Part shown: positions 56,165 through 61,749 of the stretch, one piece after another
How positions within the stretch are numbered: the first letter of the stretch is position 1
How the letters are laid out: each line of letters begins with the position of its first letter
NCBI GenBank assembly: GCA_020632535.1
Contig: JACKFJ010000006.1
Location: forward strand, 28,866-92,865
From: Candidatus Omnitrophota bacterium
GTDB lineage: Bacteria; Omnitrophota; Gorgyraeia; Zapsychrales; JANLHA01
Reading direction: 5' to 3'
DNA: 64,000 nucleotides
The notes under the pieces: generated by a model
Seen by the model: the letters and a program-made list of their open reading frames with translations, nothing else
What the model was told of the DNA's origin: nothing
The model's database searches: none
Program-made: the position numbers and the translations under genes

Positions 56165-57466
56165 TTACTTTAATTCTTCCATACGGATTGCAACTGGCTT
56201 GGATTTCACAATCCCCTGTTTATGGATTTTATCGAGCGCCACTCTCAACATTTTTTCCTGCGCGTTGTCTGTCAACATAATAACCGGAAGCGCGGAAGCC
56301 CAATGGTCATGCGCTTTTTGCGTCACGGAGTTAATGCCAATTTTGTGTTTACTGAGAATACCTGTGATTTTGGACAGCACACCCACCTTGTCCGGCGCCA
56401 TAAAACGAATATAAAAGCGCGTTGAAATATCATCAATTTTTCTAACCTTTGTTTGGGGAGCTTCACGATAAATATTTGCTAAATACTGATCAGATGGACA
56501 ACCCACGCGTGATGCCAATTGAAACAAATCACTGATGACTCCGGATGCGGCTGTCATTTGCCCAGCACCTTCGCCCGACAATAACACATCGCCCATAGGG
56601 CTCGCATTGACAAACATCGCGTTAAAAATTCCGTTGACATCTGCCAAGGGATGCTTTTTAGAGATCAGCGTTGGATGAACGCGGGCTTCAATTTCACGAT
56701 GTGATTTTTTTGCAATCGCCAAGAGTTTGATTGTTAAACCTAAACTTTCAGCATGTTCGATGTCGTGATGTGAAATTTGGGTAATTCCTTCTGTATACAC
56801 TTCTTCGGCGCTGATAAATTTCCCCATTGTTAATGAAACAAGAATTGCGAGCTTGGACGCGGAATCCATTCCATTGATATCAAGGGTTGGATTGCTTTCG
56901 GCAAAGCCTTTGGCTTGCGCGTCGCTAAGTGCTTGTCCGAATGTTAAATCTTTTTGTGTCATGCCTGTCAAAATATAATTACACGTTCCATTGATAATTC
57001 CGTAAAGGCTTTTGAATTTGTTGCCGGCTAAACCTTCCGTCAGCATTTTAATGAGCGGAACGCCTGCCATGACGGAAGATTCATAATAAATATTGCGATT
57101 ACAGCTTTGTGCTTCCTGAAAAAGTTCTTTGCCGTGCATGGCTAAAAGACTTTTGTTGGCGGTGACGACATGTTTGCCTTTTCTTAAAGCTTCGAGCACG
57201 ATTTGCTTCGCGGGTTTAATACCGCCGATCAATTCAATGACCGCATCGATTTCAGGATCATTAATAATTTTTTTGTAATTGGTTGTCAGGCGAATGTGAT
57301 CTAAACCGTTTGGGAGCTTTTTTTTGATGCTGCGGTCACAAATCGTTTTGAGATCAAATTCAATGTTGAATTTGTCCTTAAAATAACTTTTTCGTTTATG
57401 GAGAAATTGGACAACGCCAGATCCGACGTTTCCGTAGCCGATGAGCCCGAGTGTAATTTTATTCAT
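56165..57466 (-). CDS. hom: homoserine dehydrogenase
   Basis: LIGYGNVGSG NAD fold, catalytic domain, C-terminal ACT domain. Confidence 0.95.
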   Translation of the reverse strand: MNKITLGLIGYGNVGSGVVQFLHKRKSYFKDKFNIEFDLKTICDRSIKKKLPNGLDHIRLTTNYKKIINDPEIDAVIELIGGIKPAKQIVLEALRKGKHVVTANKSLLAMHGKELFQEAQSCNRNIYYESSVMAGVPLIKMLTEGLAGNKFKSLYGIINGTCNYILTGMTQKDLTFGQALSDAQAKGFAESNPTLDINGMDSASKLAILVSLTMGKFISAEEVYTEGITQISHHDIEHAESLGLTIKLLAIAKKSHREIEARVHPTLISKKHPLADVNGIFNAMFVNASPMGDVLLSGEGAGQMTAASGVISDLFQLASRVGCPSDQYLANIYREAPQTKVRKIDDISTRFYIRFMAPDKVGVLSKITGILSKHKIGINSVTQKAHDHWASALPVIMLTDNAQEKMLRVALDKIHKQGIVKSKPVAIRMEELK

Positions 57467-57471
57467 AGCTT

Positions 57472-57837
57472 TTATGGTTTTCCCTGTCTGAAGTGTTCAA
57501 TCAATTTTTTGAGGACAGTTTGTGATGGCAAAGGCAAATTTTCATCAAACTGTACCCGTGTTTCATAGATGATTCCCTTGATCTTATCCTTGGATTCTAA
57601 AACTGTGCCTTTGAGGTGGATAAATTCAGAAAGAATAGGGGTTTTTAATTCAATGCCTAGACGAGTCCCAACAGAAAAGGGTTTGGATGTTACTAGGCAC
57701 ATCCCTCCGACGCTGATGTTTTTTAATTGTGAAGAATTGTGCCGAACCATTGGATCATTCAAATCAAAATATGTCAGTATGAAATGTTCGTTGATGCGTG
57801 GGTGTTTCCGTTTTTCTGGGTGCGAATGATCCGACAT
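57472..57837 (-). CDS. PilZ domain protein
   Basis: RKHPR (RxxxR) and NISVGG (D/NxSxxG) motifs. 121 aa. Confidence 0.75.
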   Translation of the reverse strand: MSDHSHPEKRKHPRINEHFILTYFDLNDPMVRHNSSQLKNISVGGMCLVTSKPFSVGTRLGIELKTPILSEFIHLKGTVLESKDKIKGIIYETRVQFDENLPLPSQTVLKKLIEHFRQGKP

Positions 57838-57864
57838 AGTATGCTGCCTTTTTAATGAGAAATG

Positions 57865-57938
57865 TCGGAGCGGTGAGATTTGAACTCACGACCTCTTGAA
57901 CCCCATTCAAGTGCGCTAGCCATCTGCGCTACGCTCCG
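57865..57938 (-). tRNA. tRNA-Pro (anticodon GGG)
   Basis: Hand-folded sense strand cggagcg-ta-gcgc..gcgc-a-cttga-atGGGgt-tcaag-..gtgag-ttcaaat-ctcac-cgctccg-a. CCA is not encoded. Confidence 0.9.
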
Positions 57939-58105
57939 TAAAAAACTATTTAACACACACCTGCGCGATACCGTTGGGGTACAAGCGCTCCGTAAAAAAC
58001 TATTTAACACACACCTGCGCGATACCGTTGGGGTACAAGCGCTCCGTAAAAAACTATTTAACACACACCTGCGCGATACCGTTGGGGTACAAGCGCTCCG
58101 TAAAG
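57932..58105 (-). repeat. 54-bp tandem repeat, 3 perfect copies plus a degenerate partial copy, overlapping the tRNA-Pro 5' end
   Basis: Units at 57932-57985, 57986-58039 and 58040-58093 are identical. The partial copy is at 58094-58105. Each unit starts (on the + strand) with cgctccg, the complement of tRNA nt 1-7. Confidence 0.95.
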
Positions 58106-58123
58106 CTTTTAATAGATCGAAAA

Positions 58124-58151
58124 ATTATACTATAATACCCTAATCCTGCAA
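58124..58151 (-). promoter_or_regulatory. near-consensus sigma70 promoter TTGCAG-16-TATAAT facing the repeat array and tRNA-Pro
   Basis: On the minus strand, ttgcag is at 58151-58146 and tataat at 58129-58124. Confidence 0.5.
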
Positions 58152-58224
58152 AGGAAAAGTTCGACGATCGAGGTGGTAATGTGCGGGAGAAAGTTTAAGT
58201 TATTTGGATGAGATTGACCCGATC

Positions 58225-59259
58225 TTATTCAGCGTGAGTTTTGCGATGCATCAGGTCAGTAACGGCGCCAGCGGGGGACTTGTTTTTAAAGAGAATATTA
58301 TAGATTTCAGTAATGAGTGGCATGGGGATTTTGTATTTGACACTCAACCGGTATGCCGCTTTAGCAGTTTCAACACCTTCGGCCACGGTATTGGTAGATT
58401 CTAAAATTTGTGTGATCGGTACTCCCTTCCCCAGCTGTTCGCCAACCGTGCGATTGCGGCTCTGTGGGCTAAAACAGGTTGTAATCAAATCGCCTAAGCC
58501 GGTCAAACCGCTAAACGTTTTTGGTTTTGCGCCTAGCGCAGTCCCCAATGTGGAAATTTCTGCCAATCCGCGGGTTACAATCGCAGCTTTTGTATTTGTA
58601 CCATAATTAAGGCCATCGCATACGCCGCAGGCAATGGCAATAACATTTTTTAGACTGCCGCCAATTTCAACACCGATCACATCGGCGTTGGTATAAATTC
58701 GAAAAGTATCAGAGTTGAAAATTTCCTGCAGGGTTTTAGCAACTTTAATGTTTTTGCTGGCAATGACCGCTGTTGTGGGAATTTTCTTGACGACTTCGCC
58801 CGCGATTGTTGGACCAGAAAATGCCGCGAACGTGACATTACCGAGAATATCTTGAACAATTTCTGAAACCCGCATCAAAGTCGTGGTTTCAATTCCTTTT
58901 ACGACACTGACAATAATTTTATTTTTAAGGGAAATCCCGCTTCGCTTTTCGGTGCCGCTTAATTTCTTGATTTTCTTGAGTACGGATCTTAAGAATTGTG
59001 ACGGCACGGCCAAGACAATGATGTCGCTGTCGTTGATCGAAGTGGCGAGGTCGCTTGTGATTTCGACGGAACTAGGAATTTCGACGCCGGGAAGAAATTT
59101 GCGATTAAAGCGGCTCTCCTGCATGTGTTGTGTGTATTCGGGAAACGCGCCCCAGAGTTTGACAGGATAATTTTTGCGCGCAAGGTAAACTGCGAGTGTC
59201 GTGCCCCATCCGCCGTCGCCGATAATTGAAATGTAAGGTATTTTCTTGTTCATAGTCAC
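58225..59259 (-). CDS. gpsA: NAD(P)H-dependent glycerol-3-phosphate dehydrogenase
   Basis: IIGDGGWGTTLA, GSLKNV, and the typical 344-aa GpsA layout. Confidence 0.95.
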   Translation of the reverse strand: MTMNKKIPYISIIGDGGWGTTLAVYLARKNYPVKLWGAFPEYTQHMQESRFNRKFLPGVEIPSSVEITSDLATSINDSDIIVLAVPSQFLRSVLKKIKKLSGTEKRSGISLKNKIIVSVVKGIETTTLMRVSEIVQDILGNVTFAAFSGPTIAGEVVKKIPTTAVIASKNIKVAKTLQEIFNSDTFRIYTNADVIGVEIGGSLKNVIAIACGVCDGLNYGTNTKAAIVTRGLAEISTLGTALGAKPKTFSGLTGLGDLITTCFSPQSRNRTVGEQLGKGVPITQILESTNTVAEGVETAKAAYRLSVKYKIPMPLITEIYNILFKNKSPAGAVTDLMHRKTHAE

Positions 59260-59336
59260 GTCATTTCACGTTTAGTGATGTGGCTTATTATACTTGATCC
59301 GAAGGAAGTTGCAAGGGTTTGAAGTATTTCATATTC

Positions 59337-59433
59337 GCAGAGATAGCCTTATATCCCTGCTCAAACAATGTCTCGCGCTCTCACAAAAGTTCGAGGCTCG
59401 CCAAACTCGCAGGAGATATAAGGCTATCTCTGC
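59337..59433. repeat. 97-bp palindromic intergenic element (family C, copy 2, inverted relative to copy 1)
   Basis: Terminal 19-bp inverted repeat gcagagatagccttatatc / gatataaggctatctctgc. The core is the reverse complement of the 53097-53116 and 53147-53177 segments. Confidence 0.85.
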
Positions 59434-61268
59434 TAAATCGGATTGGTCATGACGCGATAAAGTACAAATGTTTCATTTTCATAGATTGGCTCGAGCAATG
59501 AATTTTTGCCGGGGGTTATATAGCGCATAAAAACGATGTAATTGACGTGGTATTGCGTTATCGCATTGATGAGTGATGATGTAATATCACCATCGACAAT
59601 AACCTTGAAATGTTCGACGGTTTTGAGTCGTTTTTGCCACTCAACGGCTGCTGGATAATTAAAACCAATAATCCCGCAATCTCGGTAGCAAACTAAAACT
59701 TTGCGTTCAGAAAAAATACGAAACCCCCCCATTTCCATATTGTTTGGGGTGAGAATCAAAGCGCTTTTGGGAGTGTGTTTACGAACATAATTCTGCATGT
59801 CAATCCAGTTGCGTTGCAATTGCCAAAATCCGCCACCGGTTTTCTCAATGTCGTTGTGAAGTTGGTGATAATAGATATAGTTTCCGGTTAAGGCGACAAA
59901 GGGCAACATAATAATCATGACTTTCAATAAATTGTGAATCTTCTCATTTTTGAATAGTAAATTTGCGACATAAAATAATATCACCAGACCAATTGTCACT
60001 TGGAGTGTGAAAATGGCAGATTTGCTAAATTGATGTGTGCTAAATTCAAAAGCGATTCCAATAAGGGATACGACAAATAATAGCCATGATAATAGATTTA
60101 GAAGTCCTTTTTCTTCTCGTAGAAGAAAAAGCAATGCGAGACATGCCAGTGTCGCGATGTAATTGTTAAAACGCAAAAGGGAGAACAAAATAACTGCTAC
60201 CGATAAAATGACGTAACGACGTGTTTGCGCTGTTTGGATTAGGAGAATCGTGGTGTAGCCGATTAAAATAAATTGCATAAACTGCAAGTTGCGCACGAGA
60301 TTAAGATCTAGAATAAAGCGGCTGGGAAAAACATACGAAAAAATAAAGGACAGTATAAGAAAGATGCTTCCGCCGACAATAAAAGCCTTAGCTTTGCCAT
60401 CTTTTTGAAATAATGAATTTGTTGTGATGTTTAATACGATGAGTGCCGCCGTTGGCCAGAACTGTTGTGTTCCTTTGAGGAAAACAGAAAAATGCCTTAG
60501 CATTTCTGCAAATGAAACATTGTCAAAAAGAAAAGTCTGCGGGCAGGCGATTTGGTATAAGGCCATCCAGTTTGTCAGATCCCCACTGACGTGAGTCGAA
60601 ACGCGTTGCAATGTCCAGATTAAAACCGGCAAACTAAAAAACAAAAAAAGTCCCACAGATTTTATTAATCTTTTTCCGTGGTCTTCCCTGCTCTTGTATA
60701 AGAGATAAAGCGCCATGTAGCAAAAGGGAAACAAACTGTAAAGCGCGTGAAAGTTGGCGGCAATTCCAAAAAGAATCGCGGCGCGCCCAAAACGGTCTTT
60801 ATAAAAGGAATACATCGCCGCCATGATGATGGCGAGCGCGAATTCTTGATGGGAAAATGTGCGATAGAGAAATTCTTCGACACGAAAAACGAGAATAAAT
60901 GACAAAACGCAAAGGCCAGCGGTAAGATGGTTTTGAGCAATATGTTTCCATAATTTAAATGCGAAGAAAAACAGAAAGAAACGGCTTAAAAGATAAAGGA
61001 TAAAATATGTGGTCGGAATTTGGTCGACGGTTATAACTTTTGCGAGTAATGGAAAAAGGAATGATGTGAAATTATTCTTAAGGGCGTCAACGTAATAATC
61101 ACCGACGTAAAGTTGAGGATCGATGAGACTTTTGAGAAGTGGGATTTCCAGATGCTGATCATCCCACGCGTATGTATAGCCATTGGCGATGAGAAAGATG
61201 AAAAGAAGTGATAGTCCTATGACCCAATCGTTTTTAAAGAGGCTTTTGAGTTTTTCAATACTCGGCAT
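59433..61268 (-). CDS. large polytopic membrane protein (GT-C-like glycosyltransferase guess)
   Basis: 611 aa with about 13 TM helices, then a soluble C-terminal domain of about 120 aa. No catalytic motif confidently recognised. Confidence 0.55.
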   Translation of the reverse strand: MPSIEKLKSLFKNDWVIGLSLLFIFLIANGYTYAWDDQHLEIPLLKSLIDPQLYVGDYYVDALKNNFTSFLFPLLAKVITVDQIPTTYFILYLLSRFFLFFFAFKLWKHIAQNHLTAGLCVLSFILVFRVEEFLYRTFSHQEFALAIIMAAMYSFYKDRFGRAAILFGIAANFHALYSLFPFCYMALYLLYKSREDHGKRLIKSVGLFLFFSLPVLIWTLQRVSTHVSGDLTNWMALYQIACPQTFLFDNVSFAEMLRHFSVFLKGTQQFWPTAALIVLNITTNSLFQKDGKAKAFIVGGSIFLILSFIFSYVFPSRFILDLNLVRNLQFMQFILIGYTTILLIQTAQTRRYVILSVAVILFSLLRFNNYIATLACLALLFLLREEKGLLNLLSWLLFVVSLIGIAFEFSTHQFSKSAIFTLQVTIGLVILFYVANLLFKNEKIHNLLKVMIIMLPFVALTGNYIYYHQLHNDIEKTGGGFWQLQRNWIDMQNYVRKHTPKSALILTPNNMEMGGFRIFSERKVLVCYRDCGIIGFNYPAAVEWQKRLKTVEHFKVIVDGDITSSLINAITQYHVNYIVFMRYITPGKNSLLEPIYENETFVLYRVMTNPI

Positions 61269-61377: not shown

Positions 61378-61450
61378 AAGAATTTTGCTTAAAGAAAAAT
61401 ATTGTTTACGTGGTAACTTTTGCTCAGAGCGCTTTTGTCCCGCTTGCGGG

Positions 61451-61468
61451 ACTGAACTACTCCCGCAA
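61451..61468 (-). repeat. 18-nt duplicate of the tRNA-Gly 5' end plus 2 leader nt
   Basis: actgaactactcccgcaa at 61451-61468 is identical to 61362-61379, an offset of 89 bp. Confidence 0.9.
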
Positions 61469-61477
61469 ATTACTTTT

Positions 61478-61543
61478 GTCATTCCCGCGATCTTTTAGCG
61501 GGAATCTAGTAGTGGATCCTCGATAAAGACATTCGAGGATGAC
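61478..61543. repeat. double-hairpin intergenic repeat (family A, copy 3, inverted)
   Basis: gtcattcccgc-gatctttta-gcgggaatc, then 7 nt, then ggatcctcga-taaagacat-tcgaggatgac. Confidence 0.85.
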
Positions 61544-61558
61544 AGTAAAATTATAAAA

Positions 61559-61674: not shown

Positions 61675-61732
61675 AAAAATTATGGGCAAGTACTTGTTTC
61701 AACTTTTGTTTTTAGGAAAACAAGTACTGCCC
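61675..61732 (-). terminator. hairpin (15-bp stem, one bulge) followed by a T-tract on the minus strand, between tRNA-Thr and tRNA-Tyr
   Basis: gggcaagtacttgtt (61684-61698) pairs with aacaagtactgccc (61719-61732). On the minus strand the downstream sequence is ataattttt. Confidence 0.5.
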
Positions 61733-61749
61733 AAAAATTATATCAATTA

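What the first reader, a model, noticed from the sequence alone, without database searches (positions are those of the whole stretch)
57865..58151. tRNA-Pro is preceded by a perfect 54-bp x3 tandem array that re-copies its own 5' acceptor strand and carries a segment antisense to its anticodon arm
Seen directly:
- Three identical 54-bp units (57932-58093) and a degenerate fourth (to 58105) lie immediately upstream of tRNA-Pro(GGG) on the minus strand.
- Read in the tRNA sense, each unit is cttgtaccccaacggtatcgcgcaggtgtgtgttaaatagttttttacggagcg.
- Each unit ends with cggagcg, which is tRNA nt 1-7. The precursor region therefore holds four copies of the 5' acceptor strand against one 3' acceptor strand.
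- Each unit begins with cttgtacccca, the reverse complement of tRNA nt 33-43 (tggggttcaag: anticodon GGG plus the 3' anticodon stem) at 10 of 11 positions.
- Each unit contains TG-T-TAAATA, an extended -10-like box 8 nt before cggagcg.
- A near-consensus TTGCAG-16-TATAAT promoter (58151-58124) sits upstream of the whole array.

Inference: either the tRNA promoter has been triplicated, or the tRNA is made with a leader of about 180 nt. The repeats in such a leader could compete for the acceptor 3' strand and mask the anticodon, acting as a self-antisense leader or processing and dosage control. I know of no described equivalent. Perfect identity of the copies implies a very recent expansion or active homogenisation.
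Basis: partly seen in the sequence, partly recalled or inferred. Interest (0 to 1): 0.7.

Follow-up and report, generated by a model that had tools for sequence, protein, structure and literature searches.

The report
Repeat array in a tRNA-Pro leader
An uncultured Omnitrophota bacterium carries three perfect 54-bp repeats between the promoter and the body of its tRNA-Pro(GGG) gene; each repeat junction is complementary to the tRNA's 3' half, so the long precursor is predicted to misfold, but this rests on folding predictions in only two genomes.

Summary
There are 54 bp x 3.2 copies at 100 % identity, and the array ends in tRNA nt 1-7.

- **Promoter:** the upstream TTTGCA-17-TATAAT promoter is conserved across Omnitrophota, so the array most likely lies in a leader of about 179 nt. 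Promoter triplication is not supported: the units have no -35, and the '-10' reads TAAACA in the relative.
- **Relatives:** one independent relative (PilZ 97 % identical, silent-site divergence 33 %) has the same array as 52 bp x 2.3. Copies are identical within each genome and differ between genomes, which indicates slippage with homogenisation. Relatives at 73-76 % lack it.
- **Distribution:** the unit was found nowhere else.
- **One feature, not two:** The junction CGGAGCG-CUUGUACCCCA complements tRNA nt 33-43 plus 66-72 around the T arm.
- **Folding:** RNAfold predicts this helix replaces the cloverleaf, by 5.8 kcal/mol in the window and 0.2 kcal/mol in the relative. About 30 natural leaders of relatives do not do this.
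- **Conservation:** the unit is more conserved than nearby spacers (p about 0.006).

I read it as a leader minisatellite that probably slows RNase P maturation. A harmless repeat is nearly as likely. The closest known case is the E. coli tyrT/tyrV 178-bp repeats.

The parts
58124..58152 (-). Conserved sigma-70-type promoter TTTGCA-17-TATAAT of tRNA-Pro(GGG). The predicted transcription start is near 58117.
   Evidence: The consensus scan gives 10 of 12. The block ttcctttgcagg...tatagtataat is conserved in L003, L004-L009, L011, L013, L016-L017 and, in looser form, in many more distant Omnitrophota.
58094..58104 (-). Partial copy R = tttacggagcg, made of ancestral leader positions -4..-1 plus tRNA nt 1-7. 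It is the left boundary of the array.
   Evidence: TRF reports 3.2 copies. Relatives without the array read ...tttaCGGAGCG|TAGCGCAG.
58040..58093 (-). Repeat unit 1 (distal), 54 bp: cttgtaccccaacggtatcgcgcaggtgtgtgttaaatagttttttacggagcg.
57986..58039 (-). Repeat unit 2, identical to unit 1.
57932..57985 (-). Repeat unit 3 (proximal). Its last 7 nt (57932-57938) are nt 1-7 of the functional tRNA.
58083..58100 (-). 18-nt junction CGGAGCG-CTTGTACCCCA (first of three; the others are at 58029-58046 and 57975-57992). It is complementary to tRNA nt 66-72 plus nt 33-43. In the predicted minimum-energy fold, this distal copy pairs with the tRNA.
   Evidence: RNAfold gives P about 0.76-0.87 for the distal junction. 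The antisense duplex is -13.5 kcal/mol.
57865..57938 (-). tRNA-Pro(GGG), with no encoded CCA. The predicted targets of the junction are TGGGGTTCAAG at 57895-57905 and the 3' acceptor strand CGCTCCG at 57866-57872.
   Evidence: ARAGORN, Rfam 63.2 bits and folding.
57472..57837 (-). pilZ-domain gene 26 nt downstream of the tRNA, followed by hom and thrC. It is probably co-transcribed with the tRNA.
   Evidence: ORFs, Pfam PF07238, synteny in about 45 loci and no terminator called.

Best explanation
The array is a lineage-specific minisatellite inside the transcribed 5' leader of tRNA-Pro(GGG).

**Structure.** It reads leader-R-(B-R)n-rest of tRNA. R is tttacggagcg, made of the last 4 leader nt plus tRNA nt 1-7. 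B is a 41-43-nt core of unknown origin. n is 3 in the window and 2 in the related species.

**Evolution.** Because R flanks every B, slippage or unequal recombination changes the copy number and keeps the copies identical. The last R always regenerates an intact tRNA 5' end.

**Predicted effect on the RNA.**
1. Transcription from the conserved upstream promoter gives a precursor with a leader of about 179 nt.
2. Each R-B junction (CGGAGCG-CUUGUACCCCA) can pair with the tRNA's own anticodon loop and 3' anticodon stem, and with its 3' acceptor strand.
3. This makes one long helix with the T arm protruding, in place of the cloverleaf.
4. The alternative state is that each unit folds into its own hairpin (GCGC-uu-GUACC-ccaac-GGUAU-c-GCGC), which hides the antisense segment, while the tRNA folds normally.
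5. I infer that the trapped form slows or misdirects RNase P cleavage. This would lower or delay the supply of mature tRNA-Pro(GGG), and copy number would set the strength.

**Shown:** the anatomy, conservation of the promoter, presence in two diverged genomes, homogenisation and conservation above the spacer background.

**Predicted only:** the alternative fold.

**Inferred:** the effect on RNase P and on tRNA dosage. Whether it is adaptive or merely tolerated is open. From general knowledge, this isoacceptor is usually dispensable when tRNA-Pro(UGG) is present.
For: - **Array and boundaries:**
- **Promoter:** it is conserved across Omnitrophota, natural leaders run 18-111 nt, and no terminator was called.
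- **Independent second genome:** L003 has 52 bp x 2.3 at the same site. Copies are identical within the genome and differ from the window's unit by 3 substitutions and a 2-nt indel.
- **Ancestral state:** relatives at 73-76 % lack the array and read tttaCGGAGCG|TAGCGCAG.
- **Not a dispersed element:** the unit is absent elsewhere in the window, in genome contigs, in viral contigs and in all fetched loci.
- **Folding:**
  - Cloverleaf P is 0.99 without units.
  - With 1 to 4 units, the 3' acceptor strand pairs with a distal copy and the anticodon stem is replaced by the antisense duplex.
  - The forced native fold costs +5.8 kcal/mol in the window and +0.2 kcal/mol in L003, where P(native acceptor) is 0.05.
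- **Folding controls:**
  - Whole leader shuffled: median P(native) 0.86.
  - Junction kept and the rest shuffled: P about 0.
  - Only the 11-mer permuted: median 0.26.
- **Relatives' leaders:** about 30 natural leaders leave P at or above 0.94 in nearly all cases.
- **Antisense match:** 10 of 11, reached by 12 of 5000 shuffles.
- **Conservation:**
  - Four-fold sites differ at 33 %.
  - Pooled non-coding DNA differs at 23 %.
  - The 43-nt core has 3 substitutions (p about 0.006).
  - 36 consecutive nt are unchanged.
- **Literature:** leader pairing that extends or occludes the acceptor end is known to inhibit bacterial RNase P (PMC9433436). Engineered leader sequestration controls RNase P cleavage in vivo (PMC7897497).
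Against: - Only two genomes carry the array, so no covariation test is possible.
- The predicted advantage of the misfold is not conserved (5.8 against 0.2 kcal/mol). The extra stability in the window comes from one window-specific base, G26.
- Nearest-neighbour folding ignores tRNA tertiary contacts, Mg2+, modification, co-transcriptional kinetics and chaperones. All of these favour the cloverleaf.
- The leader alone and the unit hairpin are not unusually stable (z +0.99, -1.67 and about 0).
- The non-coding divergence benchmark is heterogeneous at 5-42 %, so the conservation p-value is soft.
- Complementarity could be a mutational by-product, such as an inverted templated insertion, rather than a selected feature.
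- Copy number in short-read MAGs is plausible but was not verified with long reads.
- Transcription through the array is inferred, not observed.
Confidence: 0.45

Rival explanations
1. The array is a neutral, or slightly deleterious but tolerated, minisatellite. A small insertion or duplication at the leader/tRNA boundary created 11-nt direct repeats, and slippage then amplified the unit. In vivo the tRNA folds co-transcriptionally, RNase P cuts at the proximal site, and the leader is degraded. On this view the complementarity to the tRNA has no consequence and is a by-product of how the insert arose, or is chance.
For: - The behaviour is typical of a variable-number repeat: 3.2 against 2.3 copies, 54 against 52 bp, and identical copies within each genome.
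- An independent analogous event exists in L024: a 126-nt spaced duplication of tRNA nt 1-10. L036 has a partial tRNA copy in its leader. The 5' edge of this gene therefore repeatedly survives insertions that regenerate the 5' end.
- There is no excess stability of the leader or the unit.
- The misfold advantage is about 0 in L003.
- The E. coli tyrT/tyrV repeats show that arrays containing a tRNA end arise naturally.
Against: - The unit is much more conserved than silent sites (33 %) and pooled spacers (23 %) between the two genomes. The p-value is about 0.006 for the core, and 36 nt are unchanged.
- The 11-mer complementarity sits exactly next to the acceptor copy, so the two form one helix.
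- None of about 30 natural leaders in relatives is predicted to interfere in this way.
Confidence: 0.37
2. The unit is a DNA-level protein-binding site array. Each unit carries an imperfect palindrome (GCGCTTGTACC-ccaac-GGTATCGCGC), and the 52-54-bp period is close to five helical turns. A dimeric regulator could bind cooperatively between the promoter and the tRNA, acting as a roadblock or operator. The array could also act as an iteron-like or centromere-like site.
For: - The conserved 25-36-nt block coincides with the palindrome.
- Both unit lengths (52 and 54 bp) keep roughly the same helical phase.
- The position is immediately downstream of a conserved promoter.
Against: - No candidate binding protein is encoded nearby.
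- The motif was found nowhere else in the window or in any collection searched.
- The palindrome is short and imperfect.
- This idea does not explain why the repeat boundary lies inside the tRNA.
Confidence: 0.08
3. The tRNA promoter has been triplicated. Each unit would carry its own extended -10 promoter, so the array raises tRNA-Pro(GGG) transcription.
For: Each window unit contains TG-T-TAAATA 8 nt before CGGAGCG.
Against: - There is no -35-like hexamer at 16-18 nt, and the promoter scan calls nothing in the units.
- The hexamer lacks the conserved final T.
- In L003 it reads TAAACA and its spacing to the tRNA differs.
- The real conserved promoter of this gene lies upstream of the array in all relatives.
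Confidence: 0.04
4. The array is an assembly artefact. The repeat or its copy number would be a product of short-read metagenome assembly.
For: - The window comes from a MAG contig.
- The Logan unitigs break at the repeat.
Against: - An independent assembly from a different sample and species (L003) has the same array at the same site, with its own unit variant.
- The Logan unitig L002 ends exactly where the first k-mer shared with an internal junction begins. That is expected only if at least 2 units are present in the reads.
Confidence: 0.03

Closest known systems
E. coli tyrT-tyrV distal repeats (rttR small RNA / tpr region)
   Same: It is a tandem array directly abutting a tRNA gene, and every unit re-copies a terminal segment of that tRNA. 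It lies in the transcribed flank and is a product of partial duplication and unequal exchange. This was verified here: 178 bp x 3.1 at 95 % identity, overlapping the last 19 nt of tyrV.
   Different: The E. coli array is on the 3' side and copies the tRNA's 3' end, whereas this one is on the 5' side and copies nt 1-7. The units are 178 bp against 54 bp, and 95 % against 100 % identical. There is no sequence relationship. The E. coli units are in the same sense as the tRNA and are not predicted to sequester the tRNA body. Here the junction is antisense to the tRNA's 3' half. The E. coli region is annotated with a peptide (tpr), whereas here unit lengths of 54 against 52 bp rule out coding.
Bacterial minisatellites / VNTR loci evolving by slipped-strand mispairing
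   Same: The copies are head to tail and perfect, copy number differs between relatives, evolution is concerted, and short direct repeats lie at the boundaries.
   Different: The repeat boundary lies inside a tRNA gene, and the array sits between a conserved promoter and the tRNA. The unit is more conserved between species than the surrounding spacers.
Leader-dependent control of RNase P cleavage (leader/3'-RCCA pairing, PMC9433436; synthetic RNase P riboswitch, PMC7897497)
   Same: The principle is the same: structure involving the 5' leader decides whether RNase P can dock on and cut a pre-tRNA.
   Different: Those cases involve short leaders pairing with the 3' end, or an engineered aptamer. 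Here a natural, repeated leader module is predicted to invade the tRNA body (anticodon arm plus acceptor strand). No ligand or switch signal is known, and nothing has been tested.
T-box riboswitch leaders
   Same: An RNA leader carries a codon-like CCC(C)A segment that can pair with the anticodon loop. A second contact involves the acceptor end of the same tRNA species.
   Different: T-boxes precede aminoacyl-tRNA synthetase, amino-acid biosynthesis and transporter genes, not tRNA genes. They bind folded tRNA in trans through Stem I and the UGGN bulge. There is no Rfam T-box match here, and the pairing here needs the tRNA to be unfolded.
Insertions with target-site duplication (MITE or IS) and integrase att scars at tRNA genes
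   Same: An 11-nt direct repeat flanks the insert so that the tRNA stays intact. The same tRNA gene carries such events in relatives: L024 has a 126-nt insert flanked by nt 1-10, and L010 has an integrase and a duplicated 3' end.
   Different: The 43-nt core has no terminal inverted repeats and no other copies anywhere. No integrase or transposase is nearby. Integrase scars duplicate the 3' part of the tRNA, not the 5' part.

Membership tests
Minisatellite / VNTR (slippage-driven tandem duplication) | Head-to-tail copies of one unit without spacers | tested here: met
   TRF gives period 54, 3.2 copies and 100 % matches. L003 has period 52 and 2.3 copies.
Minisatellite / VNTR (slippage-driven tandem duplication) | Copy number varies between related genomes, and copies are more alike within a genome than between genomes | tested here: met
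   There are 3 against 2 full units. Within-genome differences are zero, and between genomes there are 3 substitutions and 1 indel.
Minisatellite / VNTR (slippage-driven tandem duplication) | Locus-specific, not a dispersed element | tested here: met
   There were no hits in the window, genome contigs, metagenome contigs, viral contigs or 59 fetched loci. The metagenome collection is incomplete.
tRNA-end-containing flanking repeats (E. coli tyrT/tyrV type) | Each unit of an array abutting a tRNA gene contains a terminal segment of that tRNA | tested here: met
   Every unit ends in tRNA nt 1-7 plus 4 leader nt. The E. coli units overlap the last 19 nt of tyrV.
tRNA-end-containing flanking repeats (E. 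coli tyrT/tyrV type) | Located 3' of the tRNA, carrying the tRNA 3' end, and homologous to the E. coli unit | tested here: not met
   Here the array is on the 5' side and carries the 5' end. The unit is unrelated in length and sequence. It is an analogue, not a member.
Duplicated sigma-70 promoter | -35 and -10 hexamers at 16-18 nt spacing in each unit, conserved in relatives | tested here: not met
   The scan calls no promoter inside the units. TAAATA reads TAAACA in L003.
T-box riboswitch | Match to the T-box covariance model (Stem I, specifier loop, T-box sequence) | tested here: not met
   An Rfam E-value scan of 56500-59500 found only the tRNA above noise.
MITE / IS insertion | Target-site duplication flanking the insert | tested here: met
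   The 11-nt tttacggagcg lies on both sides of each 43-nt core. Relatives show the uninterrupted target.
MITE / IS insertion | Terminal inverted repeats and multiple dispersed copies | tested here: not met
   Inspection of the core shows no terminal inverted repeats, and there are no other copies.
Integrase att scar at a tRNA gene | Duplicate of the tRNA 3' portion with an integrase or island between the copies | tested here: not met
   The duplicate is of the 5' end, and no integrase lies within 54-64 kb of the window. Relatives L010 and L012 do show such a scar.
CRISPR array | Repeats separated by unique spacers | tested here: not met
   The units are contiguous and identical with no spacers. 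Rfam found no CRISPR repeat match at the array.
Cis-acting leader control of RNase P processing | The leader forms a structure that competes with or occludes the acceptor stem or cleavage site | tested here: inconclusive
   This is predicted by RNAfold with controls. It is strong in the window and marginal in L003, with no experimental data.
Cis-acting leader control of RNase P processing | Measured change in RNase P cleavage or mature tRNA level | not testable with these tools
   This needs in vitro cleavage assays or transcript mapping.

The most novel reading that the evidence does not exclude
The repeats are natural, modular 'anti-tRNA' leader elements. Each unit toggles between its own hairpin and an 18-nt helix with the tRNA's anticodon arm and 3' acceptor strand. 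This would gate RNase P maturation of tRNA-Pro(GGG), and possibly expression of the co-transcribed pilZ-hom-thrC genes. Copy number, changed by slippage, would act as a heritable dial. RNase P could also cut at the distal copies and release 54-nt RNAs antisense to tRNA-Pro.
Probability: 0.2. Interest if true: 0.7.

Novelty: new variant of a known kind. Interest (0 to 1): 0.42.

Why it matters
If the predicted trap operates in vivo, this would be a natural case of a tRNA gene carrying a built-in, copy-number-tunable antisense brake in its own leader. So far that principle has been shown only with engineered RNase P riboswitches and with short leader/3'-end pairings. The RNA part can be tested cheaply with T7 transcripts carrying 0 to 3 units, RNase P and structure probing. 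If the trap does not operate, the locus is still a clear example of how insertions and duplications at the 5' edge of a tRNA gene survive only when they regenerate the first nucleotides of the tRNA. That would be a 5' mirror image of the classic E. coli tyrT repeats. The case rests on two uncultured Omnitrophota genomes, so its generality is limited.

Tried and rejected
- **Unit as a decayed or internally deleted copy of the tRNA gene, sense or inverted.** Chained local alignments allowing long gaps gave p of 0.03-0.13 against shuffles. Only the 11-mer antisense match stands out, so I dropped this claim.
- **Partial first copy extending degenerately beyond 11 nt.** Local alignment supports only the exact 11 nt.
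- **Dispersed element or phage att origin.** Exact 22- to 24-mers gave no hits in genome contigs, metagenome contigs or viral contigs. The metagenome collection also lacks the L004 promoter, which came from a JGI sample, so its negative result is weak.
- **More strains of the lineage.** The 90 % clusters of gpsA, PilZ and Hom contain only the window's MAG and L003 at more than 90 % identity. GTDB representatives reach at most 75 % PilZ identity.
- **Selected RNA structure in the leader alone.** The z-scores are unremarkable.
- **Coding potential of the ORFs running through the array.** Rejected because the related unit is 52 bp, which breaks every frame.
- **T-box, CRISPR or another Rfam family.** No match.
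- **Intrinsic terminator formed by the T6 run in each window unit.** None was called, and the run is absent in L003.
- **Literature search for the tyrT repeats and for natural self-antisense tRNA leaders.** Nothing directly relevant is in the held library beyond PMC9433436 and PMC7897497.
Full report
**1. Observation**

The minus strand of 57865-58152 reads: promoter-like TTTGCA-17-TATAAT (58152-58124), 19 nt, then tttacggagcg, then three identical 54-nt units (cttgtaccccaacggtatcgcgcaggtgtgtgttaaatagttttttacggagcg), the last of which runs straight into tagcgcag..., the rest of tRNA-Pro(GGG).

- TRF reports 57932-58104: period 54, 3.2 copies, 100 % identity, score 346. It is the only strong tandem repeat in the window.
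- ARAGORN and Rfam confirm the tRNA.
- The promoter scan gives 10 of 12 for the upstream site. It calls nothing inside the units and no terminator on this strand.
- The unit occurs nowhere else in the window.
- CGGAGCG occurs four times: at -162, -108, -54 and at tRNA nt 1-7.

**2. Context and relatives**

The neighbouring genes, all on the minus strand, are gpsA, then the array and tRNA, then a pilZ-domain gene 26 nt downstream, then hom and thrC. Homologues of the PilZ protein place the organism in Candidatus Omnitrophota. The window is an NCBI MAG contig of 116 kb.

About 45 Omnitrophota loci share tRNA-Pro(GGG)-pilZ synteny. In many of them a block (t)ttgca-N17-tata(g)tataat precedes the tRNA at 18-111 nt. 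I take this to be the real promoter, so the array would lie inside the transcript.

Only one other genome has the array. L003 (ENA ERZ24842383, an independent sample and assembly, PilZ 97 % identical) carries cttgtaccccaacggtatcgcgcagTtgtgtgttaaaCagAtttacggagcg, 52 bp x 2.3, at the same site. Relatives at 73-76 % PilZ identity read ...tttaCGGAGCG|TAGCGCAG with no array. The 11-nt boundary repeat is therefore the ancestral leader -4..-1 plus tRNA nt 1-7.

Logan unitigs from SRR12358676 break exactly at the first repeated k-mer. That fits at least 2 units, but these reads probably come from the same data set as the MAG.

Exact 22- to 24-mers of the unit are absent from 185,579 species-representative genomes, from the JGI metagenome collection and from IMG/VR. 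The metagenome collection is incomplete.

**3. Evolution**

Copies are identical within each genome. Between genomes they differ by 3 substitutions and a 2-nt indel.

- The two genomes are well separated. Four-fold degenerate sites differ at 126 of 384, or 33 %.
- Eight other non-coding stretches differ at 142 of 621, or 23 %, with a range of 5-42 %.

Three conclusions follow:
- At least one unit predates the split.
- The arrays have since been homogenised or independently expanded, as expected for slippage between R-flanked units.
- The core is more conserved than typical spacer DNA. Three or fewer substitutions in 43 nt has p of about 0.006, and the 36 nt tttacggagcg + cttgtaccccaacggtatcgcgcag are unchanged.

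The benchmark is heterogeneous, so this is suggestive rather than proof.

**4. Origin of the core**

The origin is unresolved.
- The 11-mer cttgtacccca is the reverse complement of the anticodon loop and 3' stem at 10 of 11 positions, reached by 12 of 5000 shuffles.
- It matches 11 of 11 the ACAAG-stem variant found in about 14 more distant Omnitrophota.
- Whole-unit chained similarity to the tRNA in either orientation is not significant.
- No terminal inverted repeats, other copies or nearby integrase were found.

The same gene shows other 5'-edge events in relatives. L024 has a 126-nt insert flanked by duplicated nt 1-10. L036 has a partial tRNA copy in its leader. L010 and L012 have an integrase and a duplicated 3' end. 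Insertions at this edge seem to survive when the duplicated target regenerates the tRNA 5' end.

**5. What the RNA is predicted to do**

CGGAGCG-CUUGUACCCCA is complementary to tRNA nt 66-72 and nt 33-43, the two strands that flank the variable loop and T arm.

Folding of the precursor from the predicted start gives these results:
- With 0 units, the cloverleaf has P of 0.99.
- With 1 to 4 units, the minimum-energy structure pairs a distal junction with both tRNA segments as one helix, with the T arm protruding.
- P(native acceptor) falls to 0.000 and P(native anticodon stem) to 0.000 at three units.

Forcing the cloverleaf costs 5.8 kcal/mol in the window.

Controls:

| Leader variant | Median P(native acceptor) |
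|---|---|
| Whole leader shuffled | 0.86 |
| Core shuffled, tttacggagcg kept | 0.12 |
| Only the 11-mer permuted | 0.26 |
| Junction kept, rest shuffled | about 0 |

About 30 natural leaders of relatives leave P at or above 0.94 in nearly all cases.

In L003 the two states are nearly isoenergetic, at +0.2 kcal/mol with P(native acceptor) of 0.05. The window's extra stability comes from a window-specific G that adds a CAGGUGUGU:GCGCACUUG helix.

The conserved block can alternatively form its own hairpin at -9.8 kcal/mol. Together with the anticodon hairpin (-3.9) this balances the antisense duplex (-13.5). Neither the unit nor the whole leader is unusually stable against shuffles.

**6. Interpretation**

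- *Promoter triplication* is rejected. There is no -35, TAAATA reads TAAACA in L003, and the conserved promoter lies upstream.
- *Coding* is rejected because unit lengths of 54 and 52 bp cannot share a frame.
- *Artefact* is unlikely given L003.

My best reading (confidence 0.45) is a slippage-evolving minisatellite in the transcribed leader. Its junctions act in cis as antisense to the tRNA's 3' half and slow or misdirect RNase P maturation. The distal CGGAGCG:CGCUCCG helix stacked on the T arm still looks like an RNase P substrate, so cleavage at distal copies is conceivable.

The principle that leader pairing affects RNase P is established (PMC9433436, PMC7897497). Its operation here is inferred.

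Almost as likely (0.37) is that the array is functionally silent in vivo, because tertiary structure, kinetics and proteins favour the cloverleaf.

A DNA-level protein-binding array remains possible (0.08), given the palindrome and the period of about five helical turns.

**7. Comparison with known systems**

The closest described analogue is the E. coli tyrT/tyrV distal repeat. I verified it here as 178 bp x 3.1 at 95 % identity, overlapping the last 19 nt of tyrV, annotated rttR/tpr. It is a 3'-side array of units containing the tRNA end.

The present case is its 5' mirror image. It adds the property that the junction is antisense to the tRNA body. It is an analogue, not a homologue.

I found no natural self-antisense tRNA leader in the literature held. 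The absence of a description rests on those searches and on my own knowledge.

**8. Verdict**

The feature is real, and it is a new variant of known kinds: a minisatellite, and a flanking repeat that contains a tRNA end. Interest is moderate. There is a specific, cheaply testable prediction of leader-mediated pre-tRNA trapping, but the support is two genomes and thermodynamic folding only.

Noticed in passing
window 61378-61557 (minus strand; spacer between tRNA-Tyr and tRNA-Gly): This 180-nt spacer is 95 % identical to L003 (9 differences in 179 nt), while pooled non-coding divergence is 23 % and four-fold sites differ at 33 %. It contains three hairpins and has no Rfam match. It may be an unannotated small RNA or a processing element.
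   Followed up: partly
window about 61682-61743 (spacer between tRNA-Thr and tRNA-Tyr): The window has a palindromic insertion of about 62 nt (GGGCAGTACTTGTTT...AAACAAGTACTTGCCC) that is absent from L003. Small hairpin insertions seem to be active in the tRNA spacers of this lineage.
   Followed up: no
L024 2164-2304: In a distant Omnitrophota genome, the leader end plus tRNA-Pro nt 1-10 (TTTTACGGGGCGTAG) is duplicated 126 nt upstream of the intact tRNA. This is an independent insertion that regenerates the tRNA 5' end.
   Followed up: partly
L010 / L012 about 600-1400; L048 upstream of the tRNA: A tyrosine-integrase gene fragment lies directly upstream of tRNA-Pro(GGG). A second copy of the tRNA 3' end (ggattcaaatccctccgccccgaca) lies about 130 nt downstream. 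It looks like an attachment-site scar, so this tRNA is an integration hotspot in the phylum.
   Followed up: no
L036 about 2290-2335 (leader of tRNA-Pro): The leader contains a degenerate copy of tRNA nt 10-30 (gcagcaggattggccagcgcacttgg).
   Followed up: no
window 57472-58152 and about 45 related loci: The promoter, tRNA-Pro(GGG) and pilZ (26-70 nt downstream) arrangement is conserved across Omnitrophota, followed by hom and thrC, with no terminator called in the window. The tRNA probably heads an mRNA operon and may act as its 5' processing site.
   Followed up: partly
window 59254-59432 (between the DUF6798 gene and gpsA): This spacer is very divergent from L003 (42 %). In the window it carries a 16-nt perfect inverted repeat (GAGATAGCCTTATATC ... 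GATATAAGGCTATCTC) about 70 nt apart.
   Followed up: no
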